Shown here: in pieces, positions 14,987 to 40,717 of the stretch
Numbering within the stretch: position 1 is the stretch's first letter
How the letters are laid out: every line of letters begins with the position of its first letter
Assembly: GCA_964551205.1 (NCBI GenBank)
Contig: CAZKCQ010000001.1
Span: forward strand, 5,746 to 69,745
From: an uncultured Spirochaetaceae bacterium
GTDB taxonomy: Bacteria; Spirochaetota; Spirochaetia; SZUA-6; DRHE01
Length of the DNA stretch: 64,000 nt
Direction of reading: 5' to 3'
Notes under the pieces: generated by a model
Told to the model about the DNA's origin: nothing
What the model saw: only the letters and a program-made list of their open reading frames with translations
Database searches by the model: none
Program-made: the position numbers and the translations under genes

Positions 14987-14988
14987 AC

Positions 14989-15013: not shown

Positions 15014-15102
15014 CCCTCTCTACTCTATCCTGTATGAAGGTGGAAATCAAGTGACTGCGTGCACTTCTATTGCGAGATAATCCGGTGCGAATCTTCCGGC
15101 GG

Positions 15103-16159: not shown

Positions 16160-16168
16160 CTGGAAATC

Positions 16169-17002: not shown

Positions 17003-17021
17003 ATTCATGAATCGGTAAGTT

Positions 17022-17963: not shown

Positions 17964-18019
17964 GATTCGATCGGGAACAATCCTTTTTTTGGCGCACTAG
18001 ATACCTATTGGGGGAGATC

Positions 18020-19087: not shown

Positions 19088-19127
19088 AACAGCCTGAAAG
19101 TGAAATTGACAATAGAGGAGCAGCCCC

Positions 19128-20306: not shown

Positions 20307-20310
20307 AGCA

Positions 20311-21428: not shown

Positions 21429-22376
21429 ATGATAGTCGTACAGGGCTTGAGCAAGCGCTACGGACAGCATACCGCCGTCGATGCTATCAGCTTCAAAGTG
21501 GAGGAAGGCGAGATCGTGGGCTTTCTAGGACCCAACGGCGCCGGTAAGACCACAACCATGAACATCATCACCGGCTACATCTCGGCCACGGAAGGCAAAG
21601 CCACGGTCGCCGGGTATGACATCCTCGAGAATCCGTTGGAAGTGAAGCGGACAATCGGCTACCTGCCCGAAGCTCCTCCCCTGTACCTGGATATGACGGT
21701 TCGGGAATATTTGGGCTTCGCGGCAAAAATCAAGCGGGTCGGGAAGGCGCAACGGCAAGGGAACCTGGATACGATCATGGATCTGGTGAAGATCGCCGAT
21801 GTTCGGGGGCGGCTCATCAAAAATCTGTCCAAGGGGTACCGCCAACGGGTCGGCCTTGCGCAGGCCCTGATCGGCGATCCTCCGGTGCTGATCCTGGATG
21901 AGCCCACCATCGGCCTGGACCCCAAACAGATCATCGAGATCCGCAACCTGATCAAAGAGCTGGGACACGAGCGAACCATCATCCTGAGCTCCCACATCCT
22001 TCCCGAGGTTACGGAAATCTGCCAGCGGGTTCTCATTATCCACCGGGGCAGGATCGTGGCCGAAGACACGATCGAAAACCTGTCCGCCGGGCTGAGCGGG
22101 CGCAGCCGCTTGGCGATCCGGGTGGCCGGAAGCGAAAAAGAGGCTCTGAAAATCTGCCGCTCCATTCCGAGCGTCAAATCGGCGGAATCGGCGGGCTGCC
22201 GGGAGCCCGACACGATCGACCTCTTAATCGAGGCGAACGAGGACCAGGACATCCGCAGACCGCTGTTTCGGGAGATGGCTGAACACGACCTTCCGATCCT
22301 GATGATGCGGTCTGTAGACTATAGCCTGGAGGACATCTTCATCCAGCTGACCACCGATGAGAAGGGGGTATCCTGA
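21429..22376 (+). CDS. ABC transporter ATP-binding protein (ABC-2 type, GldA-like)
   Basis: Walker A 'GPNGAGKTT', signature 'LSKGYRQRVGLAQAL', Walker B 'ILDEPTIGLD'. Confidence 0.85.
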   Translation: MIVVQGLSKRYGQHTAVDAISFKVEEGEIVGFLGPNGAGKTTTMNIITGYISATEGKATVAGYDILENPLEVKRTIGYLPEAPPLYLDMTVREYLGFAAKIKRVGKAQRQGNLDTIMDLVKIADVRGRLIKNLSKGYRQRVGLAQALIGDPPVLILDEPTIGLDPKQIIEIRNLIKELGHERTIILSSHILPEVTEICQRVLIIHRGRIVAEDTIENLSAGLSGRSRLAIRVAGSEKEALKICRSIPSVKSAESAGCREPDTIDLLIEANEDQDIRRPLFREMAEHDLPILMMRSVDYSLEDIFIQLTTDEKGVS

Positions 22377-22378
22377 CC

Positions 22379-23242
22379 ATGCTCGCCGTATTCACCCGAG
22401 AGCTCTCCGCCTTCTTCAAAAGCATCACCGGCTTCATCTTCATGGGCATCTTTCTGCTCATCACCGGCATCTTCTTCATGTCCGACAACCTCATTCCCCA
22501 AAGCCCGAACTACCTGAGCGTCCTGGGAGGGATAACCTTCGTATTCCTCGTGGTGGTGCCGATTCTAACCATGCGAATGCTCTCCGAAGAGCACCATCAG
22601 AAAACCGACCAGCTGCTTCTGACCAGCCCCTTGAGCATCGGCAGCATCGTCATGGGGAAATATCTGGCCGGAGTCGCTGTTTTTCTGATCACTCTGATCA
22701 TCACCCTCCTCTACCCGCTTCAGCTGAGCCTGGTGGGCTCGGTTTCCGTATCGGAGATCGCCGGGGGCTACATCGGGATCTTCCTGCTGGGATGCGCCTT
22801 TATCGCCATCGGGCTGTTCGTCTCCTCCCTTACGGAAAATCAGGTTGTAGCCGCGGTGGTGACCTTCGGGCTCCTCCTCCTGTTGTGGATCCTGGATTTC
22901 CTTCAGCAGGGACTGCCCGGAGACCGCTTTTCCGGAATCGTATTCGCCATCCTGATCGTAGTCGCCGTGGCGATCTTCCTCTACTTCACGATCCGGAATG
23001 TTTTCATAGCGGCGGCGGCAACCATAGTGGGGGGCGGTTTCATCGCCGTGCTCTCCGTCGTTCGACCGGCGAGCTTTGACGGTTTGATCGTGCGGGTGTT
23101 GAAATGGTTTTCTCTGCTGGCCCGTTATCGGGACTTTACCGGGGGATTGCTCAAGTTGAGCTCGGTGGTCTACTACCTCAGCTTCACCGCCGTGTTCCTC
23201 TTCCTGACCGTCCGCTCGCTGGACGCCCGGCGTTGGAAGTAG
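22379..23242 (+). CDS. ABC-2 family transporter permease (GldF-like)
   Basis: Six hydrophobic helices. Translationally coupled to the ATPase, with the start 2 nt after its stop. Confidence 0.7.
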   Translation: MLAVFTRELSAFFKSITGFIFMGIFLLITGIFFMSDNLIPQSPNYLSVLGGITFVFLVVVPILTMRMLSEEHHQKTDQLLLTSPLSIGSIVMGKYLAGVAVFLITLIITLLYPLQLSLVGSVSVSEIAGGYIGIFLLGCAFIAIGLFVSSLTENQVVAAVVTFGLLLLLWILDFLQQGLPGDRFSGIVFAILIVVAVAIFLYFTIRNVFIAAAATIVGGGFIAVLSVVRPASFDGLIVRVLKWFSLLARYRDFTGGLLKLSSVVYYLSFTAVFLFLTVRSLDARRWK

Positions 23243-23252
23243 GGAGGGGAAG

Positions 23253-24716
23253 ATGAAGAGTCGGAAACTGCTTGAATCCGTCAAGGATCCGAAGTTTCGC
23301 CACGGAGGGTATGCGGCGCTGGTGACAGCCATGGCCATCGCTCTGGTCATCGTCGTCAACGTCCTGGTGGACCGAATCCCCGCTGTCGTGGATCTGACCC
23401 GGGAAAAATTGTTCAGCCTCTCCGAACAGAGCATCCGCATCCTGGAAAACCTGGATCGGCCGGTCACGATCTACGGTTTGTTCGAAGCGGGGAAGGAGCC
23501 CGTGTTCATCGACGAAATCCTGCGACAGTATGCGGCGGCATCGCGTCGAATCGAACTGAAATACATCGATCCGATCCGTAATCCCGGTATCCTCAGCAGG
23601 TACCGGGTCAGCGAATCCACACCGGGTGAAAACAGCATCATCGTGGAGATGGGCGAGAAGTTCCGGGTCCTCAGCCAGTTCGATCTGTTCAACTACAGCG
23701 CCCCATCTGAGGAAAACCCCTTCGCTGCCCGCCAGGCTCAATCGCTGCGAGCCGAACAGAAACTGACCGGAGCGATCCTCTATCTGAGCGGTGAAGATAC
23801 ACCGGTGGCGTACGTTCTACGGGGACACAGAGAGGAGGAGGTGCCGTATGAGCTTCTGCAGCAGCTGGAGGAGGAGAATTACTCCTTCATCGATTTGGAC
23901 CTTCTTTCAGCGAAGGAAGTTCCGGAGGATGCGGATCTGCTGCTGGTGGTAAGTCCGGGGGAGGACCTGACGGATCAGGAGCAGGGCAGTATCCGCGAGT
24001 TTCTTCTGGATAGAGGCGGACGGGCATTCTTCATGATAGATCTTCTTTCCTCCGGTGTGAAACTGTCCAATTTCGAGGGCATTTTCCGCAGCTACGGCAT
24101 TGAACTGGAACGTGTACTGGTATTTGAAGAGGATCCCGGATTTCATCTGCCCCAGCTTTCGATCGGATTGATCCCCGACATCGAGGTGCACTCGATAACA
24201 GCCGACCTGATTACCGATGAACTGGCCGTGCTCTTTCCCCGCTCCCAGGCGATCGCCGAGCTGCCGACCAAGCGCCGAACCGTTACTGTAGAGCCGCTGT
24301 TGGTGACCTCCCCCAAAGCCTGGGGCAAGGTTGATCTGGACGACCGCTCCCTCGAACCCTCGGAAGAGGATCTTAGGGGACCATTTAATGTTGCGGTGGC
24401 TGTCACCGACAGCGGTGAGGGAGAAGCCCCGGAATCCCGCATCGTGGTGACCGCCTCATCGTTTTTCCTGTATCCGGAACGGGGCATCGGCATTCCGCTG
24501 AAAGGTCCCGGCAACGCGGATCTGTTCTACAACTCAGTCAGCTGGCTGCACGGGAGGGAGGAGACGATCTCCATCCGCGCAAAGAGCCTGCTCGAGTTTC
24601 CTCTGAGAATGAACCAGCTGCAGTTCTTCCTGTTCGCGGGAATCTCGGTCATTCTCATTCCCCTGATCGTGCTGGTCAGCGGATTGGTGATCTGGCTGAG
24701 GAGGCGCCATCTGTGA
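23253..24716 (+). CDS. GldG-like ABC-transporter auxiliary protein
   Basis: 487 aa with an N-terminal TM helix and a C-terminal TM helix 'FLFAGISVILIPLIVLVSGLVIWL'. The architecture and position after the ABC-2 permease match the Gldg family. Confidence 0.65.
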   Translation: MKSRKLLESVKDPKFRHGGYAALVTAMAIALVIVVNVLVDRIPAVVDLTREKLFSLSEQSIRILENLDRPVTIYGLFEAGKEPVFIDEILRQYAAASRRIELKYIDPIRNPGILSRYRVSESTPGENSIIVEMGEKFRVLSQFDLFNYSAPSEENPFAARQAQSLRAEQKLTGAILYLSGEDTPVAYVLRGHREEEVPYELLQQLEEENYSFIDLDLLSAKEVPEDADLLLVVSPGEDLTDQEQGSIREFLLDRGGRAFFMIDLLSSGVKLSNFEGIFRSYGIELERVLVFEEDPGFHLPQLSIGLIPDIEVHSITADLITDELAVLFPRSQAIAELPTKRRTVTVEPLLVTSPKAWGKVDLDDRSLEPSEEDLRGPFNVAVAVTDSGEGEAPESRIVVTASSFFLYPERGIGIPLKGPGNADLFYNSVSWLHGREETISIRAKSLLEFPLRMNQLQFFLFAGISVILIPLIVLVSGLVIWLRRRHL

Positions 24717-26122
24717 GGCGGCCGTTCATCCTCATCGGGCTGACCGTCGTACTGGTAGCGGCAATCGTTCTCACCTTCGTGGTCACCAGACGGCAGAAAG
24801 CTGCAGAGAATCCGGCCGAGGCCGAAGAAGTCCAGGCGGAGGAGCACGTCGAGATTTCCCTGGTCGAGCCCGCGGCGGTGCGGGACATCGAGCTCGTGTC
24901 GGCAGAGCGAAGGCTGCGGCTGCATAATACCGACGGCAGCTGGCGACTGGACCATCCCGACCCGATCGAGATAGACCCGACGGCAGTGGAAGATCTGGTG
25001 TACACCTTTGCCCGGCTGCCGGCGGAGAAAGTGATCGACCCCAACCCCGAAAATCTGGCACAGTTCGGGCTCGATCCGCCGAAAATCGTGGGCAGGGCTA
25101 CACTGGCTGACGGCAGCGTGATCGAGCTGCGACTCGGCGAGCTCACTGCGGCTGGAAACACCTACTACCTGATGAAGGCGGGGGATCCCGCTGTCTACAC
25201 CGTTTGGGCCAACCACGGCCTTCATCTCTCCTACTCGCCGGATGATCTGCGCAACAAGGATCTGCCCCGTATCGCCAAACAGCATATCCAGCATTTGAAG
25301 ATCAGCCGGCGGGGAGATCGGACCATTGAAATGCAGCAGGTCGATGAAAGCATGTCTAAGCGCTATCCCTTCCTCCAGTCGCGCTACGTGCTGACCAGTC
25401 CCTACCGGGGGCTCCAACCGGTGTCTATGGAGAAACTGTCCCTGTTCCTCAACCGGGTCCCGGTCCAGCTAAAGATCTCCCGCTTCGTAGACGATCATCC
25501 TCAAGACCTCTCCACATACGGTCTGGATCCGCCCCGGGCGGAGGTGATCATCGAGAACCCCGATACCGAGCTTTACCTCCTGATCGGCGATCGCAACAAC
25601 GAATCCCTGGTGTACGCCCGGCGAGGCGAGGGAGGTTCGGTATTTGCTTTGGAGAGCTCCGACCTCGAATTTCTGGAGGTCGAACCCTTCGATATAATCG
25701 AAAAATTTGCCTTCATCCCCTTCATCGATCATGTGGATCGGATCGATCTGCGCATCGCTGAGGAGTCCCACCGGATCGAGCTGATCCGCGGGGACGAGAC
25801 GCCGAATGCTGCCGTCACCTACTTGGTCGATGGTGCCGCTGTAGAGACGACGGCGTTCAAGGAACTGTATCGGAGCCTGGTAGGTCTGGTAGTGGAGGCG
25901 GAAGCTCCCTCACCCCCCTCGAAACAGGGAAAGGCCGTACTGGAATTGATCTACACCCTGAACAGGGGAGAACCGCTGGTCTACCACCTGGAGTTTCTGC
26001 CCTACGATCAGGACTTTTTGGCTGTTTTCAAAAACGACATAGCGGAGTTCCTGATCTCCGGACAGCAGGTGGCGATGCTGGTGCGGAAGGTGGGGGCGTT
26101 TCTTCAAGCCCTTTCGAACTGA
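24713..26122 (+). CDS. DUF4340-like protein (fourth gene of the GldA/F/G-type cluster)
   Basis: N-terminal TM 'PFILIGLTVVLVAAIVL' followed by a repetitive beta-rich domain. Its start overlaps the GldG-like stop. Confidence 0.55.
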   Translation: MRRPFILIGLTVVLVAAIVLTFVVTRRQKAAENPAEAEEVQAEEHVEISLVEPAAVRDIELVSAERRLRLHNTDGSWRLDHPDPIEIDPTAVEDLVYTFARLPAEKVIDPNPENLAQFGLDPPKIVGRATLADGSVIELRLGELTAAGNTYYLMKAGDPAVYTVWANHGLHLSYSPDDLRNKDLPRIAKQHIQHLKISRRGDRTIEMQQVDESMSKRYPFLQSRYVLTSPYRGLQPVSMEKLSLFLNRVPVQLKISRFVDDHPQDLSTYGLDPPRAEVIIENPDTELYLLIGDRNNESLVYARRGEGGSVFALESSDLEFLEVEPFDIIEKFAFIPFIDHVDRIDLRIAEESHRIELIRGDETPNAAVTYLVDGAAVETTAFKELYRSLVGLVVEAEAPSPPSKQGKAVLELIYTLNRGEPLVYHLEFLPYDQDFLAVFKNDIAEFLISGQQVAMLVRKVGAFLQALSN

Positions 26123-26178: not shown

Positions 26179-26286
26179 TTACTTCATGCCCACGTTGACC
26201 AGCCGGCGGCCACGGCCTTCCAGTGCGGTAAGGATAACCGCGTTCTTGTCCGCAGCGCTGGTTTCGTTGATAATCGCAATCTTCAT
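26179..26286 (-). pseudogene. 35-codon remnant resembling the N-terminus of an RpiB/LacA/LacB-family sugar-phosphate isomerase
   Basis: Reverse-strand ATG at 26286 with an AAGGAG RBS 7 nt upstream. It translates 'MKIAIINETSAADKNAVILTALEGRGRRLVNVGMK' and then TAA. Full-length family members are about 150 aa. Confidence 0.3.
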
Positions 26287-26493
26287 GTCAGCTCCTTATC
26301 CTCTTCCCGTGCTCAAGAAAAATTTCGATCTTACATAGTGTTGAAGAAACCGGCTACAATACGTCGGGAGAAAATCCATGGATATCGGATTTTCAGAATG
26401 ATTCACATGCTAAAATGGCTTTGATTGTTTATCAATTTCGTGCTACTTTGCCGGGGATCACGAAAACGAGGCTCGAAGTATGCGAGGACAGAA

Positions 26494-27138
26494 ATGAAAG
26501 AACAGTCTGAAAAATATTTTTCGGTTCTGTTCGAGCAGCGACCGGAGCTGATTGCCTGCCGAAGCGCCCTGAAAGCCGCCTTCCAGACGCTGGCGGCCTG
26601 CTTCCGGAGCGGAAACAAGCTGCTGGTCTGCGGCAACGGCGGCAGCGCCGCCGATTCAGAGCATATCGTCGGGGAGCTGATGAAGGGATTTCGTCTCCGC
26701 CGGCCGGTGCCTGAAGCCCGGGTCGCCCGGCTGCGCGGTCTCTACGGTACGGAGGGCGAACAGATCGCCCGCAACCTGCAGGGCGCCCTGCCGGCCATTT
26801 CGCTTGTCAGCCAGATATCCCTGTCCACGGCCATCGCCAACGATGTTTCAGCCGACATGGTCTTTGCCCAGCAGGTGTTCGGCTACGGCCGGCGTGGAGA
26901 CGCGTTGATCGCCATCAGCACCTCCGGCAACGCCGCCAACGTGATCAACGCGATCAAGGTTGCCCGGGCCCTGGAACTGAAGACCATTGCCCTGACCGGA
27001 GAAGGAGGGGCTCTGAAAGAGCTCGCCGAGATCGCCGTCGGGGTTCCCGGAGAGGACACCGCCCGGATCCAGGAGCTTCACATGGCCGTGTATCACACCC
27101 TCTGTGCCGCCCTCGAGGCCGATCTGTTCCCCGGGTAG
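26494..27138 (+). CDS. SIS-domain sedoheptulose-7-phosphate isomerase (GmhA-like)
   Basis: 'LLVCGNGGSAADSEHIVGEL' matches the GmhA motif 'CGNGGSAADAQHFAAEL'. 'AISTSGNAANVINAI' is present. Length is 214 aa. Confidence 0.8.
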   Translation: MKEQSEKYFSVLFEQRPELIACRSALKAAFQTLAACFRSGNKLLVCGNGGSAADSEHIVGELMKGFRLRRPVPEARVARLRGLYGTEGEQIARNLQGALPAISLVSQISLSTAIANDVSADMVFAQQVFGYGRRGDALIAISTSGNAANVINAIKVARALELKTIALTGEGGALKELAEIAVGVPGEDTARIQELHMAVYHTLCAALEADLFPG

Positions 27139-27145
27139 GTGATCG

Positions 27146-29065
27146 GTGATGTCCGCCTCTGTAGAGACAATTGACAAGCTGCTTTCCGGGCTTCCGAAGC
27201 TGCACATCGGCATCATCGGGGATTTCTGCCTGGACGCTTACTTCGAGGTCGACATGTGCGCCTCCGAGACCTCGGTTGAAACGGGTCTGCCCACCCGTCC
27301 GGTGGCCCAGCAGCGCTACTCCCTGGGGGGGGCCGGCAATGTGGCGGCCAACCTCAAAGCCATGGGGGTAGGGACGGTACGGTGCTTCGGGGTCAGCGGA
27401 GACGATCCCTTCGGGCGGCAGATGCGGCGCATCATGGCCGAGGCGGGTATAGAAGACAGCGAGCTTCCGGTACAGGAACGCGCCTGGGACACACACGTGT
27501 TCACCAAGGTGATCATCGGAGAGGAGGAGCAGCCCCGCCTGGACTTCGGGAACTTCAATGATCTGCATCCCCAGACGGCCGACCGCCTCTTGTCCGACCT
27601 CCGGCGCCGGGTCCCCGAATTGGATCTGCTCATCGTAAACCAACAGGTGCTCCGCGGCATCCACTGCGAGAGCTTCCGAAAGAGACTGATTGACCTGCTG
27701 GCCGGGCATCCCCGGCTGCTGTCGATCGTAGACAGCCGCAACTACAGCGCCGAGTTCCATCCCTGCCTGCGTAAGATCAACGACCGGGAGGCCGCCGTGC
27801 TCTGCGGCAAAGAACCTGGCCTCGACCAGACGATCTCCCTGGAGGAGGCCCGGGAGTACGGCTTGACCCTGTACAGCCGCTGGAACAAGCCCCTGTTTCT
27901 CACCCGGGGCGGGCGGGGCTGCCTGGTCTTCGATGCCGAGGGGTGCACGGAGATCCCCGGCCTGCTGCTGGTCTCCCGGATCGACACAGTGGGAGCAGGG
28001 GACAGCTTTCTGGCCGGGGCTGCGGCTGCTCTGGCGGCGGTAAACAAACCGGGGGTGGCGGCAGAGTTCGGCAATCTGGTGGCGGGGGTGACGGTGCAGA
28101 AGCTGTTCGTCACCGGCACGGCCAGCCCGCAGGAGATCCGGACCCTGGCCGCAGAAGCCAACTATCGCTACCACCCGGAGCTGGCCGCCCTGCCGCAGAA
28201 GGCCCGCTATTTCCGGGACAGCGAAATCGAGATCGTAAGTGAGCTGCCCCACGGCAGCCGCATCACCCATGCGATCTTCGACAACGACGGCACCATCTCC
28301 ACCCTGCGCCAGGGCTGGGAGGAGGTGATGGAGCCGGTGATGATCCGCTCGATTCTCGGCGAGGGATGGCGGAAGGGCGAGGAGACCGCCTACCGGAAGG
28401 TTCGGGACCGGGTTCGAAGCTACATCGACCGGACCACGGGGATCCAGACCCTGGTGCAGATGGTCGGACTGGTGGAGATGGTGCGGGAGTTCGGCCGTGT
28501 GCCCCAGGGGGAAATCCTCGACGAGCACGGCTACAAGGCGCTGTACAACCGGGAGCTGATAAAGGCAGTCAACCGGCGGATTGACAAGATCCGCAGCCGG
28601 GAGCTGTCCGTGGCGGATTTTACACTCAAAGGTGCGGTGGAGTTTCTGCGGGAACTTCACCAGCGCGGCGTACGCCTGTACCTGGCCAGCGGAACGGATC
28701 AGGAGGATGTGGAGCGGGAAGCGGAGATCCTCGGCTATGCCGGGTTGTTCGAAGGCAGGATCTACGGCGCCATCGGTGACATCACCCACGAACCCAAGAG
28801 AAAGGTGCTGGAGAGCATCCTGGGCGACATCCGCCTTAAGAAAGGCGAGCAGGTGACGACCTTCGGGGACGGGCCGGTGGAGATCCAGGAAACCAGCAAG
28901 CGAAAGGGTATCGCCGTGGGGGTGGCCAGCGACGAGGTGCGCCGCTTCGGGATGAACCTGGCCAAACGCAGCCGCCTGATCCAGGCCGGGGCAGATCTGA
29001 TCGTGGCGGATTTCTCCCAGTCCGGGAACCTGATGCAGCTCCTGTTCCCGAAAAAGGGGAAGTAG
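27146..29065 (+). CDS. Bifunctional fusion: HldE/RfaE domain-I-type heptose 7-phosphate kinase with a C-terminal HAD-superfamily hydrolase domain
   Basis: The N-terminal ~330 aa carries 'HIGIIGDFCLDAYF' and 'SLGGAGNVAANLKAMG', the RfaE kinase-domain pattern. The C-terminal ~300 aa carries HAD motif I 'IFDNDGTIS', motif II 'LASGT' and motif IV 'FGDGPVEIQE', with a cap domain. Confidence 0.75.
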   Translation: MMSASVETIDKLLSGLPKLHIGIIGDFCLDAYFEVDMCASETSVETGLPTRPVAQQRYSLGGAGNVAANLKAMGVGTVRCFGVSGDDPFGRQMRRIMAEAGIEDSELPVQERAWDTHVFTKVIIGEEEQPRLDFGNFNDLHPQTADRLLSDLRRRVPELDLLIVNQQVLRGIHCESFRKRLIDLLAGHPRLLSIVDSRNYSAEFHPCLRKINDREAAVLCGKEPGLDQTISLEEAREYGLTLYSRWNKPLFLTRGGRGCLVFDAEGCTEIPGLLLVSRIDTVGAGDSFLAGAAAALAAVNKPGVAAEFGNLVAGVTVQKLFVTGTASPQEIRTLAAEANYRYHPELAALPQKARYFRDSEIEIVSELPHGSRITHAIFDNDGTISTLRQGWEEVMEPVMIRSILGEGWRKGEETAYRKVRDRVRSYIDRTTGIQTLVQMVGLVEMVREFGRVPQGEILDEHGYKALYNRELIKAVNRRIDKIRSRELSVADFTLKGAVEFLRELHQRGVRLYLASGTDQEDVEREAEILGYAGLFEGRIYGAIGDITHEPKRKVLESILGDIRLKKGEQVTTFGDGPVEIQETSKRKGIAVGVASDEVRRFGMNLAKRSRLIQAGADLIVADFSQSGNLMQLLFPKKGK

Positions 29066-29068: not shown

Positions 29069-30172
29069 ATGCCCTTTGCCCGGTTTGATCGAAGGCGGCT
29101 TCGCTTCCAGGCCCTGAAAACCCGCAGGAATCGGGTGTTCATCGAGACGGATCACGTCTCCCCCACGACTCCGCCGGGTCCGCTGGACCCGGATACCCTG
29201 GCCGCGATCGAAGAACTGGCCCGGGCTGTCAGGGAGGCTCGCTCCGGCAAGCGGCCGGTGGTTCTGGCCTTCGGAGCCCACACCATCAAGAACGGCCTGG
29301 CCCCGGTGCTCATCCGGCTGATCGAACAGGGTTGGTTGACCCACCTGGCCACCAACGGGGCCGGGATCATCCACGACTGGGAGTTCGCCTTTCAGGGGGC
29401 GAGCTCCGAAGACGTGCGGGAGAACGTGCACCAGGGAAGCTTCGGGATCTGGGAGGAGACCGGACGCTACCTGAACCTGGCCTTGCTGGTGGGAGCCTAT
29501 GAGGGCTTCGGATACGGGGAATCGGTCGGGTCCCTGGTCGAGCATGACGGCCTGAGGATCCCGGATAGGGCCGAGCTGATCGGGGCCGCCGAGCAGGCCT
29601 CGATAGATCCCGAGCGGGCCGCGGCAGCGGCGGACCTGCTCTGGGCCGTGGAGGCCTTCGCTTTACAGCCGGGATTCCTCTCCGTGAAGCATCTCTTCAA
29701 GCGCTACGGACTGCAGGCCGCGGCTTTTCGACTCCGGGTTCCCTTCACCGCCCACCCCATGTTCGGCCACGACATCATCTACACCCATCCCCTGAATCGG
29801 GGGGCCGCGGTCGGCCGCACCGCGGAACGAGATTTTCTGGTCTTTGCCCAAACGATCGCCGATCTGGAGGGAGGGGTGTATATCTCCCTCGGCTCGGCGG
29901 TGATGTCTCCGATGATCTTCGAGAAGTCCCTGTCCATGGCCCGCAACCTGGCCCTGCAGCAACGGCGGAGGATCGAGGAGTTCTCGATCTTCGTGGTCGA
30001 TCTGGCCGAGTCGGGCTGGGACTGGCAGAAGGACGGGGAACCGCCCCCGGATCATGCCGCCTACTACGTGCGCTATCTCAAAACCTTCAGCCGCATGGGG
30101 GGACGCTTGAGCTACCTGCAGGCGGACAACCGGGATTTTCTGCTGGCCCTCTGCAGAGCCCTCGGTGGGTAG
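29069..30172 (+). CDS. Conserved hypothetical protein, possible deoxyhypusine-synthase-like NAD-binding fold
   Basis: 'VLAFGAHTIKNGLAPVLIRLIEQGWLTHLATNGAGIIHDW' parallels the DHS '[41 protein letters not shown]'. 'VPFTAHPMFGHDIIYTH' parallels the DHS 'IPVFSPALTDGSLGDMIF'. This is read from motif resemblance only. Confidence 0.4.
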   Translation: MPFARFDRRRLRFQALKTRRNRVFIETDHVSPTTPPGPLDPDTLAAIEELARAVREARSGKRPVVLAFGAHTIKNGLAPVLIRLIEQGWLTHLATNGAGIIHDWEFAFQGASSEDVRENVHQGSFGIWEETGRYLNLALLVGAYEGFGYGESVGSLVEHDGLRIPDRAELIGAAEQASIDPERAAAAADLLWAVEAFALQPGFLSVKHLFKRYGLQAAAFRLRVPFTAHPMFGHDIIYTHPLNRGAAVGRTAERDFLVFAQTIADLEGGVYISLGSAVMSPMIFEKSLSMARNLALQQRRRIEEFSIFVVDLAESGWDWQKDGEPPPDHAAYYVRYLKTFSRMGGRLSYLQADNRDFLLALCRALGG

Positions 30173-30235: not shown

Positions 30236-31459
30236 GTGACATCTCGGGAACGGATACTGGCGGCCTTCGATCACCGTGAAGCGGATCGCCTGCCTGTGGA
30301 TCTTTCGGGCCACCGCTCCTCGGGTCTGAGTGCCGCGCTCTACCCGGGGCTGAGAAGGGCCCTGGGTTTGGTGCCGCGGCCTGTTCGGGTCTACGATCCC
30401 ATTCAACAGCTGGCGATCATCGACCAGGACGTTCTGGATTGCCTGGGGGTCGACACGATCGAGCTGGGGCGGGCCTTCGCCCTGGAGGAGAGGGATTGGG
30501 TCGACTGGACGCTTCCCGACGGCACCCCCTGCCAGATGCCGGCCTGGGCATGCCCGCAACGCCTGGACGGACGCTGGGTATTGAGGTCTTCGGAAGGGAT
30601 AATCCTGGCCCAGATGCCCGACGGAGCCCTGTACTTCGAGCAGACACGCTGGCCTTTCCACGAAAAAGAAAACCTCGATAGACTGCCTGAGGCGCTGCAG
30701 GAGGTGATGTGGGTGCGCTTTCCCTCTCCCCCCGGCCCCCTGGCTGACGGACCGCAGGGTAATAAAAAGCTGGCTGAAGGGGCGCGGCGGCTGCGGGAAT
30801 CGACGGATCGGGCCGTCATCGGCCTGTTCGGGGGAAGCATCTTCGAGTACGGAGAGTGGTTGTACGGGATGGACAACTATCTCTGCATGTTCGCCGGAGA
30901 GCCGAAGCGCCTCGATCGCTTCCTCGAGCGCCTGGTGGCGCAGCACCTGGTTGATCTGGAACGCTATCTGAGCGCGGTGGGGCCGTACATCGACATCATC
31001 GCCTTCGGGGACGACCTGGGCATGCAGACCGGGCCCATCATCTCTCCTGAGATGTACCGCCGCTTCCTAAAACCCCACCACATCACCATGTGGGGCCGAG
31101 CCAAGGAGCTGGCGCCGGTGAAGGTGATGCTCCACTGCTGCGGCGGGATCCGCGAGCTGCTTGCGGACCTGATCGACGCCGGGCTGGAGGCGGTGAATCC
31201 GGTCCAGACCAGCAGCGCAGGCATGGATCCGCAGATGCTGAAGCGGGAGTTCGGCAGGGATATCGTATTTTGGGGCGGAGGCTGCGATACCCGGGACGTG
31301 CTGCCTAAAGCCAAGCCCGGGCGGGTCAAAGACCATGTACGCAGCCGGGTGGAGATCCTAGGCCAGGGCGGCGGCTTCGTGTTTCAGCAGGTGCACAATA
31401 TCCTCTCCGACGTCCCCGTGGAAAACATCATCGCCATGTACGAGGCTGTCCGTCAGTGA
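30236..31459 (+). CDS. URO-D/MtaA-like family protein (paralogue 3)
   Basis: GTG start at 30236 with an AAAGGAG RBS. 'FGDDLGMQTGPIISPEMYRRFLKP' and 'MLHCCGGIRELLADLIDAGLEAVNPVQ' motifs. Confidence 0.75.
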   Translation: MTSRERILAAFDHREADRLPVDLSGHRSSGLSAALYPGLRRALGLVPRPVRVYDPIQQLAIIDQDVLDCLGVDTIELGRAFALEERDWVDWTLPDGTPCQMPAWACPQRLDGRWVLRSSEGIILAQMPDGALYFEQTRWPFHEKENLDRLPEALQEVMWVRFPSPPGPLADGPQGNKKLAEGARRLRESTDRAVIGLFGGSIFEYGEWLYGMDNYLCMFAGEPKRLDRFLERLVAQHLVDLERYLSAVGPYIDIIAFGDDLGMQTGPIISPEMYRRFLKPHHITMWGRAKELAPVKVMLHCCGGIRELLADLIDAGLEAVNPVQTSSAGMDPQMLKREFGRDIVFWGGGCDTRDVLPKAKPGRVKDHVRSRVEILGQGGGFVFQQVHNILSDVPVENIIAMYEAVRQ

Positions 31460-31551
31460 AGATTACCGCCGGGGATGGAGCGCTCGGAAGTCCCTCGATT
31501 TAATACAAGCTCAGTGGACAAACCGTGCGGAGTCGGTCCATAATCCGTCGC

Positions 31552-32565
31552 ATGGATTCCAAGGAAATCGTCTACCGCGCCCTCGCCTTTGAGGACGTAC
31601 CCCGGGTGCCCTACGCCGTAGACTTCACGGTGCCCGCCCGGGAAAAGCTCTGCGCCTCAGCGGCCGGCAGGAAACTGTACGACCGCATCGAGAACGATCT
31701 GCTGCTGACCCCGGTGATCCGGGTGGAATGGGGGACTCACGACGCCTCGGGCCTGTATGAAGACGAGTTCGGTCTGATCTGGGACCGTAGCCTGGATCCG
31801 GACATCGGCATCCCCCGATCCTTCGTCACACCGGAGAATCTGGATTCGATCCCCTGGCCGGATCCCCGGTTTGGGAGACGATTCGATGTGCTTCGAGACA
31901 ATATCAGGCAATATCCAGATCGTTTTCAGGTGATGAGCCTGGATTTCAGCCTGTACGAGAGGTCCTGGGGTCTGCGCGGTCTGGTAAATATGTATGTGGA
32001 CATGGTGGAACGACCCGATTTCACCGAAGCCCTGCTGGACCGGGTGCTTGAGTTCAACCTGAAGATCATCGAAGCGGGTCTTGAGACCTGTCCACAGGTC
32101 GATGCCGTGCATTTCGGGGACGACTTCGGCAGCCAGACCGGTATCCCCATGGGGGCGGAGCGCTGGCGTCGGCTGCTCAAGCCGAGGCTTGCCCGTCAGT
32201 ACGCTGCGGTCAAGGATGCCGGAAAGGTGGTATCCATCCACAGCTGCGGTAAAGTGGAGGAGATCCTCGACGATCTGGTGGAAATTGGCGTGGACCTGTT
32301 CAATCCCTTCCAGCCGGAAGTCACGGACGTTCCAGTAATTTTTCAACGATACCACGGCCGGCTGGCCTTCTGGGGCGGGGTGAGCACGCAGAAGCTGCTC
32401 CCCTATGCCGGTGTCGAGGAGGTGCGGCGGCAGATCGACAGGCTCCTGGACATGGGAAAGAACGGAGGCTACGTGATCGCGCCGGCCCATGCCACGCCCG
32501 GGGACGCCAGGGTGGAGAACATGGAAACTATGCTGCGGATGATCATCGAACAGGGGGCCCGATAA
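31552..32565 (+). CDS. URO-D/MtaA-like family protein (paralogue 4)
   Basis: 'HFGDDFGSQTGIPMGAERWRRLLKP', 'SIHSCGKVEEILDDLVEIGVDLFNPFQ' and the C-terminal 'FWGGVSTQKLLPYAGVEEVRRQIDRLLDMGKNGGYVIAPAH'. The start may be 31525 or 31552. Confidence 0.7.
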   Translation: MDSKEIVYRALAFEDVPRVPYAVDFTVPAREKLCASAAGRKLYDRIENDLLLTPVIRVEWGTHDASGLYEDEFGLIWDRSLDPDIGIPRSFVTPENLDSIPWPDPRFGRRFDVLRDNIRQYPDRFQVMSLDFSLYERSWGLRGLVNMYVDMVERPDFTEALLDRVLEFNLKIIEAGLETCPQVDAVHFGDDFGSQTGIPMGAERWRRLLKPRLARQYAAVKDAGKVVSIHSCGKVEEILDDLVEIGVDLFNPFQPEVTDVPVIFQRYHGRLAFWGGVSTQKLLPYAGVEEVRRQIDRLLDMGKNGGYVIAPAHATPGDARVENMETMLRMIIEQGAR

Positions 32566-32821
32566 CGGCGGTGCAGTCATCCACGTGCCTTGAACGCCAG
32601 AGTTTGTGCTTCAGGCTGTGCTCCGCGTAGTAGAATGGGTCTTGAAAGTAGCGGTTGACATCGAGGTCTTCAAGGATCGTCCCGGCGATCGGTTCCTCCA
32701 GCGCGACAAAAAAGCTCGCCGTTCCCGGCTTCCGCGACTTGCTGCTTGTTCGATTGTTCTTGCTTTCGGTTACCGCGAACACCTCATCGATCAGCGCGTC
32801 GAGCATGCCCTTATCGGCCAC
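32543..32821 (-). CDS. Small hypothetical protein (92 aa) between two URO-D-like genes
   Basis: The ORF is 'MADKGMLDALIDEVFAVTESK...'. Its start lies 17 nt after the stop of the upstream minus-strand URO-D-like gene and its 3' end overlaps the plus-strand URO-D gene by about 22 nt. No recognisable family. Confidence 0.25.
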   Translation of the reverse strand: MADKGMLDALIDEVFAVTESKNNRTSSKSRKPGTASFFVALEEPIAGTILEDLDVNRYFQDPFYYAEHSLKHKLWRSRHVDDCTAVIGPPVR

Positions 32822-32837
32822 TATCGGCCTCCTTCAG

Positions 32838-33890
32838 CTACAGACTCGGCACTGTCAGGCCGTCCTGCCGCAGGCAGGCTTCGAGGATCACGAGCAGATT
32901 TTCGTCCCGGGTGCCGTGCTCGATGTCCGGGACAGACAGGCTGAAGCGGTGACGGTCGCCCGCAGGAACCCGGGCCAAAATCCTTTCCGTCTCCTCCTCG
33001 ACTTCAACTGCAGAAGCACTGAGAAGGAACTGGGCGCTGTAGATGTAGCGTACCAGCGCTTCGGGAAAGCCCGCCAGGGTTTTGGCGATATCGGAGCCCC
33101 AGCCGATCTCCAGGAACTCCACCTTGGGAATCCTGCGGTAGGCGGAGAGGTACGGATCGAAAACACCGCAGTGATGGATGCCGAAGGGACATCCGGCCGC
33201 CTCCGCGACCGCGAAGATCTCCAGATCGAAGGGCAGCAGCCAGTCGGTATAGCTCTCCGGTCCCACGAAGGGCACAGTACAGTTGGTCAGGATCGTCGTC
33301 TCCGGTCGTCGGTTGGCCGCGTTGAAGTTAACCACGGCCTGGAGAATCCCATAACAAAAGGCGAGCAGATGCCCCGCCAGCTCCGGGTCCTCCTCCCTGT
33401 CCAGAAAAAAATCCTGACCCCGGATCAGCACCGCATCGTTGAGCACTCCCCTGGGAACAAAAAGAGGCGATTCCGTGCGGCCGAGCCGGCTGTTCAGCCT
33501 CTCCACCTGGCTCACGATCTCACTGTAGGGGAAAACAGAGGTGATATCCGACGGGACCTCCAGAGCCCTCACCTTCTCCGCTTCGAGGTGGCGGTTCCAG
33601 GGGTAATTGTCCACCGGGTAGGCGATCTCGCAGCCCGCCGCGGCCGCGGTGGCGGCGTTGCCGAAATCGGGGGGTACCACATCGGCGACCGGATCGCTGT
33701 CACCGATGGCGAGCTGCGGAAAGCGCCGTGCCAGCGTGCGGGCCATCTCCTGGTGGCAGGACACCCGGTAGTCGGGGCCGAAAACAAACTCCCTGCCGAA
33801 GTCCAACCCGTAGCCCCGATGCCACCAGGAGGGCAGGAAGTTGTAGAGCAGACTGTCGATCGGCAGCTTGCGGCGGACCGTATACCACAT
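32838..33890 (-). CDS. URO-D/MtaA-like family protein (paralogue 5, divergent)
   Basis: 'AAAAGCEIAYPVDNYPW...CPFGIHHCGVFDPYLSAYRRIPKVEFLEIGWGSD' has the 'HxCG' block shared with the other paralogues. Confidence 0.6.
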   Translation of the reverse strand: MWYTVRRKLPIDSLLYNFLPSWWHRGYGLDFGREFVFGPDYRVSCHQEMARTLARRFPQLAIGDSDPVADVVPPDFGNAATAAAAGCEIAYPVDNYPWNRHLEAEKVRALEVPSDITSVFPYSEIVSQVERLNSRLGRTESPLFVPRGVLNDAVLIRGQDFFLDREEDPELAGHLLAFCYGILQAVVNFNAANRRPETTILTNCTVPFVGPESYTDWLLPFDLEIFAVAEAAGCPFGIHHCGVFDPYLSAYRRIPKVEFLEIGWGSDIAKTLAGFPEALVRYIYSAQFLLSASAVEVEEETERILARVPAGDRHRFSLSVPDIEHGTRDENLLVILEACLRQDGLTVPSL

Positions 33891-33914
33891 CTCAGGAAGG
33901 CCCCCGGGAATCAG

Positions 33915-40623: not shown

Positions 40624-40717
40624 GGAGCTTCTCTCGTACACCTTTGACCCGTCTATGGGTTCCAGACAGAGCCGCACCAGCACGAGGTGAATGCGAAGTT
40701 TTCAGTGAGCCCCTCAC

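What the first reader, a model, noticed from the sequence alone, without database searches (positions are those of the whole stretch)
27146..29065. Domain architecture of the 639 aa protein: sugar-kinase (RfaE-I) domain fused to a HAD hydrolase
The N-terminal half carries 'GGAGNVAANL'. The C-terminal half carries motif I 'FDNDGT', motif II 'ASGT', a Lys, and motif IV 'GDGxxE'. A kinase fused to a phosphatase that could act on the same sugar would make a sugar-1-phosphate from a 7-phosphate in one polypeptide. The canonical HldE fusion partner is an adenylyltransferase, and I am not aware of this kinase::HAD arrangement among the characterised heptose pathways.
Basis: partly seen in the sequence, partly recalled or inferred. 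Interest (0 to 1): 0.55.

Follow-up and report, generated by a model that had tools for sequence, protein, structure and literature searches.

The report
Heptose-type sugar kinase fused to phosphatase
This gene really does encode a sugar kinase of the heptose-pathway type joined to a phosphatase-type domain; the fusion is widespread but uncharacterised, and it travels with an isomerase and an unknown protein that look like a variant route for making heptose sugar phosphates.

Summary
The kinase is closest to HldA/RfaE domain I by sequence and by predicted structure, but scores far below the equivalog cut-off. The HAD domain keeps the DxD phosphotransferase motif. It carries a ~120-residue helical C1 cap and is not related to GmhB, the capless phosphatase of the known heptose pathway.

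The fusion occurs in at least 575 species genomes across Bacteroidota, Spirochaetota, Planctomycetota, Lentisphaerota and others. None is characterised. It is usually preceded by a GmhA-like isomerase with a 26-residue insertion. A GSU2086-family protein with a weak deoxyhypusine-synthase-like fold usually follows it directly. In other lineages that protein is fused to each heptose-pathway module.

Best reading (about 0.5): anomeric kinase, then 7-phosphatase, giving beta-heptose-1-phosphate.

Caveats: only one lineage places the fusion in a canonical ADP-heptose operon. Most loci are alpha-mannoside catabolic loci with no nucleotidyltransferase, so a mannose-6-phosphate substrate or a beta-phosphomutase role for the HAD domain remains open.

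Verdict: new variant of a known kind, moderate interest.

The parts
26494..27138 (+). GmhA-like SIS isomerase. The mechanical ORF starts at TTG 26425; the likely true start is ATG 26494, giving 214 aa. It carries a ~26-residue insertion relative to canonical GmhA.
   Evidence: Pfam SIS_2. NCBIfam gmhA 149.6 bits, below the cut-off of 209. PDB phosphoheptose isomerases match at E 2e-33 in two stretches that flank the insertion; the motifs GNGGSAAD-xEH-xxGE and RIQELH-xxxYH are retained. The insertion is shared by all cassette-linked SIS proteins and absent from the canonical GmhA of L001.
27146..29065 (+). The fusion gene: 639 codons from GTG, with a probable start at ATG 27149. RfaE-I/HldA-like kinase joined to a C1-capped HAD domain.
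27146..28150 (+). Kinase domain (residues 1-335). It contains the GDFCLDxY motif (25-32), the GG motif (61-62), NxxE (212-215) and the DTVGAGD catalytic loop (280-286).
   Evidence: Pfam PfkB. TIGR02198 rfaE_dom_I 102 bits, cut-off 345. Alignment to HldA 4e84 over residues 16-321. Foldseek top seven hits are all HldA, E 1e-23 to 6e-22, against 4e-16 for the best ribokinase-like structure. Invariant residues.
28151..28255 (+). Conserved linker (residues 336-370), consensus YRYxPELAxxPxxARY..DTEIEIV.
   Evidence: Alignment A1. The model has pLDDT 82-89 in this region.
28256..29062 (+). HAD domain (residues 371-639). Motif I is FDNDGT (378-383), motif II LASGT (513-517), motif III K551 and motif IV GDGPVE (574-579).
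   Evidence: Pfam PF00702, PF13419 and PF12710. Invariant D379, D381, G382, T383, S515, G516, T517, D518, K551, G574, D575, G576, P577 and E579.
28295..28663 (+). Helical cap inserted between HAD motifs I and II (residues 384-506), the C1 cap type. It has many invariant residues: S385, T386, R388, G390, W391, E392, T431, G432, Q434, T435, Q438, Y463, K464, R478 and K495.
   Evidence: AlphaFold2 secondary structure shows helices at 391-408, 413-430, 435-449, 460-483, 489-492 and 497-506, between strands 372-379 and 510-518. Conservation.
29069..30172 (+). GSU2086-family protein (367 aa), the conserved partner of the fusion. It has a weak deoxyhypusine-synthase/ArgZ-C-like Rossmann fold and unknown function.
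   Evidence: NCBIfam NF052581, 321.6 bits against a cut-off of 250. AF2 pLDDT 90.3. Foldseek best hits are DHS and LOR/SDH, E 1e-6, TM 0.43-0.55. Pfam gives weak ArgZ-like_C_2nd and DS hits. It lies directly downstream of the fusion in 54/69 and 29/31 loci.
30236..32565 (+). Two URO-D/MtaA-CmuA-like genes (30236..31459 and 31525..32565). They lie on the same strand directly after the cassette; operon membership is possible but uncertain.
   Evidence: Pfam URO-D and NCBIfam MtaA/CmuA, below cut-off. URO-D-like genes recur next to the cassette in L004, L005, L016, L018, L025 and L050.

Best explanation
The 638/639-aa protein is a bifunctional enzyme that carries out two consecutive steps on one manno-configured sugar phosphate. 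[quoted passage not shown] The N-terminal RfaE-I/HldA-like domain would use ATP to phosphorylate the anomeric O1, giving the beta-1,7-bisphosphate. The C-terminal HAD domain would then remove the distal 7-phosphate through its Asp379 nucleophile and Asp381 acid/base, releasing beta-heptose 1-phosphate. In this reading the HAD domain plays the role of GmhB without being a GmhB homologue: it is a C1-capped HAD, whereas GmhB is a capless HAD-IIIA enzyme. The fusion would join steps 2 and 3 of the heptose pathway in one polypeptide, whereas HldE joins steps 2 and 4. The product is probably handed on to the GSU2086-family protein encoded 4 bp downstream. What is shown: the architecture, the intact catalytic motifs of both domains, the kinase's closest relatives, the cap type, and the conserved gene partnership. 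What is inferred: the identity of the sugar, which phosphate is removed, and hydrolysis rather than phosphoryl transfer.
For: Both domains are real and catalytically intact. The kinase is nearest to heptose-7-P kinases. TIGR02198 scores E 3e-29, against 1e-14 for ribokinase. HldA 4e84 is the best PDB sequence hit. The seven best Foldseek hits are all HldA, at E about 1e-23 and TM 0.81-0.84 on the target, versus 4e-16 for the next class. The N-terminal GDxxLDxY motif aligns with that of HldA. The upstream gene is a GmhA relative that retains the motifs aligned with phosphoheptose isomerase structures. The downstream gene belongs to the GSU2086 family, whose namesake lies between gmhA and hldE in Geobacter sulfurreducens. 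In other lineages that family is fused to rfaE_dom_I-like kinase, rfaE_dom_II-like nucleotidyltransferase, GmhA-like SIS, HAD, and once to the whole kinase-HAD fusion. It also neighbours an HldE-like gene (L087), a GmhB-type HAD with a GmhA-like and an RfaE-II-like gene (L089), and a GT9 heptosyltransferase-like gene (L088). In Cyclobacteriaceae locus L001 the fusion overlaps by 4 bp the start of an rfaE_dom_II gene (185.8 bits, cut-off 181.5). HldD (372 bits, cut-off 274.6) and canonical GmhA (284.5 bits, cut-off 265) follow, and the locus has no separate kinase or GmhB. That fusion groups with the other Bacteroidota fusions in a tree and shares every invariant residue, cap included. Partnership counts: GSU2086 lies directly downstream in 54/69 genome loci and 29/31 metagenome loci.
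Against: The kinase scores 102 bits against the 345-bit equivalog cut-off, and the isomerase 150 against 209, so both are divergent and could have shifted substrate. The canonical ADP-heptose operon context was found in only one lineage (L001, L002, L132, L134). The closest metagenomic relatives of that protein (59-65% identity) all have the SIS-fusion-GSU2086 context instead. No RfaE-II, GmhB or GT9 gene is in the 64-kb window, and no nucleotidyltransferase lies beside the fusion in the other loci. So a use for heptose-1-P is not visible. In Bacteroidota the cassette is embedded in an operon with LacI, ROK kinase, GH38, GH92, an AGE-family epimerase, and SSF, MFS and SusC-type transporters. 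That is an alpha-mannoside catabolic locus, and GH38 also follows the cassette in L004. The HAD domain has a C1 cap like the beta-phosphoglucomutase group, and sequence alone cannot distinguish phosphatase from mutase. I could not search the HAD domain by fold separately. No experiment exists.
Confidence: 0.5

Rival explanations
1. Same two-step mechanism, but on the hexose. The GmhA-like isomerase with the insertion acts as a phosphomannose isomerase (Fru6P to Man6P). The kinase makes beta-mannose 1,6-bisphosphate and the HAD domain removes the 6-phosphate, giving beta-mannose 1-phosphate for the GSU2086 protein or another acceptor. This would tie the cassette to mannose released by the neighbouring alpha-mannosidases.
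For: Most loci are mannose-centred. Bacteroidota operons carry ROK kinase, GH38, GH92, an AGE-family epimerase/isomerase and sugar transporters. L004 carries Lyx_isomer, mannitol dehydrogenase and GH38. Kinase and isomerase both fall well below the heptose equivalog cut-offs. All cassette-linked isomerases share an insertion absent from canonical GmhA. Chemically, GmhA's reaction on a C6 ketose phosphate would give mannose 6-P (established stereochemistry of the GmhA reaction; my inference).
Against: The fusion in L001 sits in a canonical ADP-L,D-heptose operon and shares all invariant cap and active-site residues with the window protein. The GSU2086 partner is repeatedly tied to heptose-type modules, GmhB-type HAD and GT9. 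I know of no pathway that uses beta-mannose 1-phosphate, and a literature search for it returned only a heptose paper. Ordinary mannose catabolism needs neither step.
Confidence: 0.2
2. The HAD domain is a beta-phosphomutase rather than a phosphatase, analogous to beta-phosphoglucomutase. It interconverts the beta-1-phosphate and the 7-(or 6-)phosphate of a manno sugar through the bisphosphate. The fused kinase supplies that bisphosphate to prime the mutase's aspartyl-phosphate.
For: The HAD domain has a four-helix C1 cap and the DxDGT motif with the Asp+2 acid/base, the class to which beta-PGM belongs. JGI's pipeline labels some members 'beta-phosphoglucomutase-like'. A mutase fits a catabolic locus better than an ATP-consuming kinase-phosphatase pair, and a built-in activator synthase would explain why the kinase is fused. 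The last two points are my inference.
Against: No beta-PGM family model (or any specific HAD family) hit at E <= 1, and the HAD profile finds only weak core matches in the PDB. No phosphorylase that would make a beta-manno-sugar 1-phosphate is evident in the loci. Known heptose pathways use kinase plus phosphatase. The fusions and neighbourhoods of GSU2086 with nucleotidyltransferases point to a biosynthetic direction.
Confidence: 0.15
3. The two activities oppose each other to set the level of a regulatory or cofactor bisphosphate such as heptose 1,7-bisphosphate or mannose 1,6-bisphosphate, in the manner of PFK-2/FBPase-2. Alternatively, the two domains act on unrelated substrates and are fused only for co-expression.
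For: Kinase-phosphatase fusions that control a bisphosphate signal are known (PFK-2/FBPase-2; general knowledge). The cassette lacks a visible consumer of a sugar 1-phosphate in most loci. It is co-located with regulated catabolic operons under LacI-type regulators.
Against: The very tight three-gene and even three-domain coupling with GSU2086, and with pathway enzymes in other lineages, argues for a metabolic pathway with flux. There is no regulatory domain, and no target enzyme is known.
Confidence: 0.1

Closest known systems
[quoted passage not shown]
   Same: The N-terminal RfaE-domain-I type PfkB kinase is the closest sequence family. Both are two-domain fusion proteins within a heptose-type pathway, next to a GmhA-type isomerase.
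   Different: The C-terminal partner is a HAD domain, not a cytidylyltransferase-like adenylyltransferase. HldE fuses steps 2 and 4 of the pathway, whereas this protein would fuse steps 2 and 3. The score is 63 bits against a cut-off of 521.
HldA + GmhB as separate proteins (Burkholderia cenocepacia HldA, PDB 4e84; GmhB, HAD-IIIA, TIGR00213/NF006506)
   Same: HldA is the best structural match of the kinase domain, at TM 0.84 on the target and E 1e-23. The proposed chemistry (1-O-phosphorylation, then 7-dephosphorylation) is that of HldA followed by GmhB.
   Different: Only 21-24% identity to HldA. The phosphatase domain is a C1-capped HAD with a ~120-residue helical cap. It has no GmhB or HAD-IIIA model hit and no profile similarity to a GmhB-type HAD (hhalign probability 0.2%). 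If it does the same job, this is non-orthologous displacement.
NDP-heptose biosynthetic enzyme architectures surveyed by Tang et al. 2024 (Science 385:678), as summarised in PMC11461863
   Same: The same pathway modules: isomerase, kinase, phosphatase and nucleotidyltransferase.
   Different: The summary lists nucleotidyltransferase alone, kinase-nucleotidyltransferase and isomerase-kinase-nucleotidyltransferase fusions. A kinase-phosphatase fusion and a GSU2086-type component are not mentioned. I read the commentary, not the primary paper.
Beta-phosphoglucomutase and other subfamily-I (C1-capped) HAD phosphotransferases
   Same: DxDGT motif I, Ser/Thr motif II, Lys motif III, an acidic motif IV, and a helical cap inserted right after motif I.
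   Different: No significant sequence match to any characterised member; the best PDB profile hit is 3kzx at E 0.014, over the core only. The cap is longer, and the domain is fused to a kinase.
6-phosphofructo-2-kinase/fructose-2,6-bisphosphatase
   Same: A kinase and a phosphatase for one sugar bisphosphate in a single polypeptide.
   Different: Unrelated folds. That enzyme makes and destroys the same phosphoester as a signal. Here the two domains most likely act on different positions, giving net conversion.

Membership tests
PfkB / ribokinase-like carbohydrate kinases (PF00294) | Profile score above the Pfam gathering threshold | tested here: met
   97 bits against 25.8, residues 52-320.
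PfkB / ribokinase-like carbohydrate kinases (PF00294) | Catalytic motifs: N-terminal GG dipeptide, NxxE, and the DTxGAGD loop carrying the catalytic Asp | tested here: met
   G61, G62, N212, E215, D280, G283, A284, G285 and D286 are invariant in 22 sequences.
RfaE domain I / HldA heptose-7-phosphate kinase (TIGR02198 equivalog) | Score at or above the curated equivalog cut-off (345 bits) | tested here: not met
   102 bits. It is still the best-scoring family by 15 orders of magnitude in E-value.
RfaE domain I / HldA heptose-7-phosphate kinase (TIGR02198 equivalog) | Closest structural neighbour is HldA rather than ribokinase, PFK-2 or 1-PFK | tested here: met
   Foldseek ranks 1-7 are all HldA (E 1e-23 to 6e-22, TM 0.81-0.84 on the target). 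The next class scores E 4e-16.
RfaE domain I / HldA heptose-7-phosphate kinase (TIGR02198 equivalog) | [quoted passage not shown] | not testable with these tools
   Needs an enzyme assay.
HAD superfamily (PF00702) | Four motifs: DxDx(T/V), S/T, K and an acidic motif IV; profile score above threshold | tested here: met
   51.5 bits against 26.4. D379, D381, T383, S515, T517, K551, D575 and E579 are invariant. The predicted Rossmannoid strand order is interrupted by the cap.
GmhB, heptose-1,7-bisphosphate 7-phosphatase (HAD-IIIA; TIGR00213, NF006506, TIGR01662) | Sequence membership in HAD-IIIA or GmhB models | tested here: not met
   No GmhB, histidinol-phosphatase or HAD-IIIA model hit at E <= 1. 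By contrast, the separate HAD of locus L089 scores 164 bits on NF006506 and 113 bits on HAD-IIIA. hhalign of the window's HAD profile against that protein gives probability 0.2%.
GmhB, heptose-1,7-bisphosphate 7-phosphatase (HAD-IIIA; TIGR00213, NF006506, TIGR01662) | Capless (C0) architecture, i.e. no cap domain between motifs I and II | tested here: not met
   About 123 residues forming four long and two short helices lie between motif I (378-383) and motif II (513-517).
GmhB, heptose-1,7-bisphosphate 7-phosphatase (HAD-IIIA; TIGR00213, NF006506, TIGR01662) | Hydrolyses the 7-phosphate of heptose 1,7-bisphosphate | not testable with these tools
   Functional analogy is inferred from the fusion and the gene context only.
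HldE (NF008454) | C-terminal cytidylyltransferase-like adenylyltransferase domain (rfaE_dom_II) | tested here: not met
   NF008454 matches only profile positions 11-312. There is no CTP_transf_like hit. tblastn with two RfaE-II proteins finds nothing in the window.
Beta-phosphoglucomutase-type HAD mutases | C1 helical cap plus membership in a beta-PGM sequence family | tested here: inconclusive
   The cap type is consistent, but no beta-PGM model or structure matched. Mutase and phosphatase cannot be told apart by sequence.
GSU2086 family (NF052581), for the downstream partner gene | Score above the curated cut-off (250 bits) | tested here: met
   321.6 bits over profile positions 2-300.
GmhA, sedoheptulose-7-phosphate isomerase (TIGR00441), for the upstream partner gene | Score above the equivalog cut-off (209 bits) | tested here: not met
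   149.6 bits in two stretches split by a 26-residue insertion. The motifs that align with solved GmhA structures are kept.

The most novel reading that the evidence does not exclude
The three-gene cassette defines a previously unrecognised branch of manno-heptose (or manno-hexose) phosphate metabolism. The cassette consists of a GmhA-like isomerase with an insertion, the kinase::C1-HAD fusion, and a GSU2086-family protein. In this reading the GSU2086 protein is a new, widely distributed pathway enzyme with a deoxyhypusine-synthase-like dinucleotide-binding fold. It could be, for example, an HldD-independent epimerase or oxidoreductase acting on beta-heptose 1-phosphate or ADP-heptose. The pathway would then be wired into alpha-mannoside utilisation loci of anaerobic glycan degraders rather than into LPS synthesis.
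Probability: 0.3. Interest if true: 0.75.

Novelty: new variant of a known kind. Interest (0 to 1): 0.55.

Why it matters
Heptose phosphates and ADP-heptose are LPS precursors, antibiotic-adjuvant targets, and innate-immune agonists sensed by ALPK1. The known pathway has four or five enzymes with a small set of architectures. If this fusion is active on heptose, a kinase-phosphatase fusion with a non-GmhB phosphatase would add a new way of making beta-heptose 1-phosphate. It occurs in hundreds of species, including phyla not usually discussed for heptose metabolism (Spirochaetota, Planctomycetota, Lentisphaerota, Bacteroidota). It would also mean that surveys keyed on GmhB or HldE under-count heptose producers. 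The constant partner, the GSU2086 family, is an uncharacterised protein that is linked or fused to every module of the pathway in bacteria and archaea. It is therefore a concrete, testable candidate for a missing pathway function. The placement inside alpha-mannoside catabolic operons is unexplained and may point to a new link between glycan foraging and sugar-phosphate metabolism. If instead the fusion merely duplicates HldA plus GmhB, the finding is a useful annotation correction for thousands of 'HAD family hydrolase' entries.

Tried and rejected
1. Rejected: HAD profiles, motifs and predicted fold are all consistent, and there is no CTP_transf hit.

2. HAD domain as a GmhB homologue. Rejected.

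3. Identifying the HAD subfamily by structure. A HAD-only sequence profile against the PDB gave only marginal core matches.

4. GSU2086 as the missing phosphatase (GmhB substitute). Rejected, because it coexists with GmhB-type HADs in L089 and L088 and with the HAD domain here.

5. GSU2086 as a nucleotidyltransferase. Unlikely, because it is fused or adjacent to RfaE-II-like domains.

6. Generalising the ADP-heptose-operon context of P0113. A metagenome scan for its close relatives found that context only for the identical sequence. All other relatives have the SIS-fusion-GSU2086 context.

7. Looking for RfaE-II, GmhB, GT9 or HldD elsewhere in the window. None was found except a generic SDR at 20.3-21.2 kb.

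8. Literature searches for the fusion, for GSU2086, for beta-mannose 1-phosphate, and for phosphoheptose isomerase in GH92 loci. Nothing was found on the fusion. Only a Tn-seq table mentions GSU2086.

9. Using ROK, AGE and transporter family assignments to name the sugar. Uninformative, because all fell below equivalog cut-offs.

10. Promoter and terminator scan of 25.9-34.9 kb. No signal above the shuffled expectation. It is consistent with one transcription unit but proves nothing.
Full report
**1. Observation**

The window contains an uninterrupted ORF at 27146..29065 on the + strand, 639 codons from GTG. The second codon is ATG and most homologues are 638 aa, so the real start is probably 27149.
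- GGAGNVAANL at residues 61-70
- FDNDGT at 378-383
- ASGT at 514-517
- GDGPVE at 574-579
- an invariant Lys at 551

Pfam assigns PfkB to residues 52-320 (E 1.7e-27) and the HAD 'Hydrolase' family to 375-580 (E 2.1e-13). Both are above their gathering scores. The 120 best hits among 5.8 billion proteins are all full-length two-domain proteins of about 630-670 aa at 54-99% identity. The fusion is therefore real and conserved, not an assembly or frameshift artefact.

**2. Anatomy of the two domains**

I aligned 22 homologues spanning 54-80% identity.

Kinase domain. It keeps the GG dipeptide (G61, G62), NxxE (N212, E215) and the DTVGAGD loop with the catalytic Asp (D280-D286). It also keeps an N-terminal GDFCLDxY motif that aligns with the GDvmLDrY of B. 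cenocepacia HldA.

HAD domain. It keeps:
- motif I, D379-x-D381-G-T; the DxD form is typical of phosphoryl-transfer HADs
- motif II, S515/T517
- motif III, K551
- motif IV, G574-D-G-P-x-E579

An AlphaFold2 model built on this alignment has mean pLDDT 87 and pTM 0.76. Between the motif I strand (372-379) and the motif II strand (510-518) it places four long helices (391-408, 413-430, 435-449, 460-483) and two short ones. That is a C1-type helical cap of about 120 residues. The cap contains many invariant residues, as expected for the specificity-determining part of a HAD enzyme.

**3. Closest relatives of each domain**

Kinase. The best NCBIfam model is rfaE_dom_I (TIGR02198, E 3.4e-29), followed by HldE and then ribokinase at 1e-14. 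The score of 102 bits is far below the 345-bit equivalog cut-off. The best PDB sequence hit is HldA 4e84. In a Foldseek search of the PDB the first seven hits are all HldA chains (E 1e-23 to 6e-22, TM 0.81-0.84 on the target). Ribokinase-like structures start at 4e-16. The kinase is thus a divergent member of the heptose-7-phosphate-kinase branch of the PfkB family.

HAD domain. It matches no specific HAD family, and in particular no GmhB, histidinol-phosphatase or HAD-IIIA model at E <= 1. A HAD-only profile finds only marginal core matches in the PDB; the best is 3kzx, a subfamily IA protein, at E 0.014. A profile-profile comparison with a genuine GmhB-type HAD from locus L089 gives probability 0.2%. 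GmhB is capless, whereas this domain is C1-capped. If it performs GmhB's reaction, it does so as an analogue, not a homologue.

**4. Immediate neighbours in the window**

Eight bases upstream ends a SIS-domain gene (mechanical ORF 26425..27138; likely start ATG 26494, 214 aa). It is clearly related to GmhA (E 7e-44) but scores below the cut-off (150 against 209 bits). Against solved phosphoheptose isomerases it aligns in two blocks separated by a 26-residue insertion. It keeps the GNGGSAAD-x-EH-xxGE and RIQELH-xxx-YH segments.

Four bases downstream starts a 367-aa gene (29069..30172). It has no Pfam family at normal thresholds but is a clear member of NCBIfam's 'GSU2086 family' (321.6 bits, cut-off 250).

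Two URO-D/MtaA-like genes and a 519-aa orphan follow on the same strand. An ABC-2 transporter set lies upstream. A consensus scan found no terminator-like site on the + strand within 25.9-34.9 kb, but it was not informative above the shuffled expectation.

**5. Distribution and synteny**

The 80 best came from Bacteroidota, Spirochaetota, Planctomycetota, Lentisphaerota, Verrucomicrobiota, Ignavibacteriota, Kiritimatiellota and others. The Bacteroidota include Prolixibacteraceae and the cultured Mariniphaga anaerophila DSM 26910 and Draconibacterium aestuarii.

Where enough flank is present, a GSU2086-family gene lies directly downstream on the same strand in 54 of 69 genome loci and in 29 of 31 metagenome loci. 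A GmhA-like SIS gene lies within the flank in 39 of 72 and 28 of 40. All cassette-linked SIS proteins carry the same insertion. The canonical GmhA of locus L001 does not.

**6. The GSU2086 partner**

[quoted passage not shown] All three have similar Tn-seq phenotypes (PMC5585712), though polar effects could explain that.

The AlphaFold2 model of the window protein is confident (pLDDT 90.3). It resembles known structures only weakly. The best matches are deoxyhypusine synthase, a LOR/SDH protein and the C-terminal domain of ArgZ/AgrE, at E about 1e-6 but TM only 0.43-0.55. Weak Pfam hits to ArgZ-like_C_2nd and DS agree. The fold is thus probably a dinucleotide-binding Rossmann-type fold, and the chemistry is unknown.

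An exhaustive HMMER search of 1.84 billion representatives found 1,966 relatives. Among them are proteins in which the GSU2086 domain is fused to:
- PfkB plus HAD (P0242, 1021 aa, i.e. the whole fusion plus GSU2086)
- an rfaE_dom_I-like kinase (P0299)
- a HAD domain (P0303)
- a GmhA-like SIS domain (P0314)
- rfaE_dom_II-like nucleotidyltransferases (P0259, P0264, P0436)
- a DUF89 damage-control phosphatase plus nucleotidyltransferase (P0266)

Short-form GSU2086 genes sit in three informative contexts:
- next to an HldE-like gene (L087)
- next to GmhA-like, RfaE-II-like and GmhB-type HAD genes (L089)
- in an archaeal locus with a GmhB-like HAD and a GT9 heptosyltransferase-like gene (L088)

This Rosetta-stone and neighbourhood pattern ties GSU2086, and hence the window's cassette, to heptose-type pathways. 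It also shows that GSU2086 is not a GmhB substitute. No GSU2086-containing locus among 158 (1.9 Mb) had an HldD homologue. The one lineage with HldD lacks GSU2086. That is compatible with, but far from proving, an HldD-like role.

**7. Evidence for the heptose reading of the fusion itself**

In Cyclobacteriaceae locus L001 (GCA_035304505.1) the fusion P0113 is 56% identical to the window protein. Its end overlaps by 4 bp the start of an rfaE_dom_II gene that scores above its equivalog cut-off. An HldD epimerase and a canonical GmhA follow, both above cut-off. The locus has no separate kinase or GmhB. In a neighbour-joining tree that fusion is sister to the other Bacteroidota fusions. It also shares all invariant residues, including those of the cap. 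The simplest reading is that it supplies the kinase and phosphatase steps of ADP-L,D-heptose synthesis there, and that its orthologues have the same chemistry.

**8. Evidence that complicates it**

The L001 context is a single lineage. A metagenome scan for close relatives of P0113 recovered it only for the identical sequence (L132, L134). All other relatives (59-65% identity) show the SIS-fusion-GSU2086 arrangement, often with an AGE-family epimerase.

In Prolixibacteraceae the cassette sits inside a long co-directional operon: LacI, ROK kinase, SIS, GH38 (TAT signal), GH92 (lipoprotein signal), fusion, GSU2086, DUF1080, AGE epimerase, SSF symporter and SusC-like receptor. In L004 it sits among Lyx_isomer, mannitol dehydrogenase, four URO-D-like genes, GH172, a cytoplasmic GH38 and GH43. 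These are alpha-mannoside catabolic loci.

No nucleotidyltransferase accompanies the cassette there, and none is present in the 64-kb window. Both the kinase and the isomerase are well below the heptose equivalog cut-offs.

Two alternatives therefore stay open. One is a hexose version of the same chemistry: Fru6P to Man6P to beta-Man-1,6-P2 to beta-Man1P. The other is a beta-phosphomutase role for the C1-capped HAD, with the kinase supplying the bisphosphate activator.

**9. Mechanism I commit to**

The proposed order is sequential. The HldA-like domain phosphorylates the anomeric position, and the HAD domain then hydrolyses the distal phosphate. [quoted passage not shown] The beta-heptose 1-phosphate produced would pass to the GSU2086 protein.

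I put this at about 0.5. The hexose variant gets about 0.2, the mutase variant about 0.15, and a regulatory or unrelated-activities reading about 0.1.
- Shown: the architecture, the intact catalytic residues, the nearest relatives, the cap type, the conserved partnerships, and the fusions of the partner.
- Inferred: the sugar, the position hydrolysed, and hydrolysis versus transfer.

**10. Comparison with the known, and novelty**

Characterised heptose pathways use one of two arrangements. In one, HldE (kinase plus adenylyltransferase) works with GmhB. In the other, HldA, GmhB and HldC are separate proteins. The cross-kingdom survey of heptose enzymes, as summarised in PMC11461863, lists nucleotidyltransferase alone and its fusions with kinase or with isomerase plus kinase. 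I found no paper describing a kinase-HAD fusion or the GSU2086 family's function.

The library searched lacks many subscription-journal papers, so this absence is not proof. The architecture itself is abundant in sequence databases under generic or automatically composed names.

I rate it a new variant of a known kind. The parts are familiar: a PfkB kinase, a HAD phosphotransferase and a GmhA-like isomerase. The combination is undescribed, the phosphatase module is non-homologous to GmhB, the fifth component is conserved but unknown, and the genomic setting is unexpected.

Interest is 0.55. This is not a new principle. It is a widespread, testable gap in a pathway that matters for LPS, antibiotics and innate immunity.

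Noticed in passing
window 29069..30172 (+): GSU2086-family protein with a weak deoxyhypusine-synthase/ArgZ-C-like fold. In other lineages it is fused to PfkB, HAD, SIS, RfaE-II-like and DUF89 domains. It neighbours HldE-like, GmhB-type and GT9 genes in archaeal and bacterial loci. Function unknown; possibly a missing heptose-pathway enzyme.
   Followed up: yes
window 26494..27138 (+) (mechanical ORF from 26425): GmhA-like isomerase with a ~26-residue insertion after the KGFxxxRP segment. All SIS proteins linked to the fusion share the insertion, and a canonical GmhA lacks it. The protein scores below the GmhA equivalog cut-off and looks like a distinct subfamily.
   Followed up: partly
window 30236..31459 and 31525..32565 (+); further tblastn matches near 8.6 kb (-), 39.5 kb and 55.4 kb (+): Multiple URO-D / MtaA-CmuA-like paralogues with no assigned function. 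Similar genes recur beside the cassette in Spirochaetota, Lentisphaerota and Verrucomicrobiota-type loci, with four copies in L004.
   Followed up: partly
window 32655..34214 (+): A 519-aa ORF directly after the URO-D-like genes, with no Pfam or NCBIfam hit even at E <= 10.
   Followed up: no
window 21429..26122 (+): ABC-2 type transporter set: an ATPase, an ABC-2 permease, a GldG-like ABC_transp_aux/DUF7088 protein and a DUF4340 protein, immediately upstream of the cassette.
   Followed up: no
window 13943..21291: Lower-GC (0.50-0.54 against 0.60-0.64) sugar cluster. It holds a LacI regulator (-), two Gfo/Idh/MocA oxidoreductases, a xylose-isomerase-like TIM barrel, a second PfkB kinase, an inositol-3-phosphate-synthase-like gene (303 bits, cut-off 638) and an SDR epimerase.
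   Followed up: no
window 26179..26286 (-): A 35-codon ORF (MKIAIINETSAADKNAVILTALEGRG...) in the AT-richer spacer upstream of the SIS gene. From memory it resembles the N-terminus of RpiB/LacAB-type isomerases and may be a gene remnant; not tested.
   Followed up: no
window 40001..52000: A block of markedly lower GC (0.47-0.50) between flanks of about 0.55-0.62. Its origin was not examined.
   Followed up: no
L021 1316..21328 (Mariniphaga anaerophila DSM 26910) and about 20 other Bacteroidota loci: A conserved co-directional operon: Metallophos, LacI, ROK, SIS, GH38, GH92, fusion, GSU2086, DUF1080, AGE epimerase, SSF symporter and SusC-like receptor. This puts a heptose-pathway-like cassette inside an alpha-mannoside utilisation locus. 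Unexplained.
   Followed up: partly
L001 5954..6985 (+): In the one lineage where the fusion sits in an ADP-heptose operon, the gene just upstream is a 343-aa protein with only a weak DUF4432 (mutarotase-like) hit. A DUF4432 gene also occurs near the cassette in L004.
   Followed up: no
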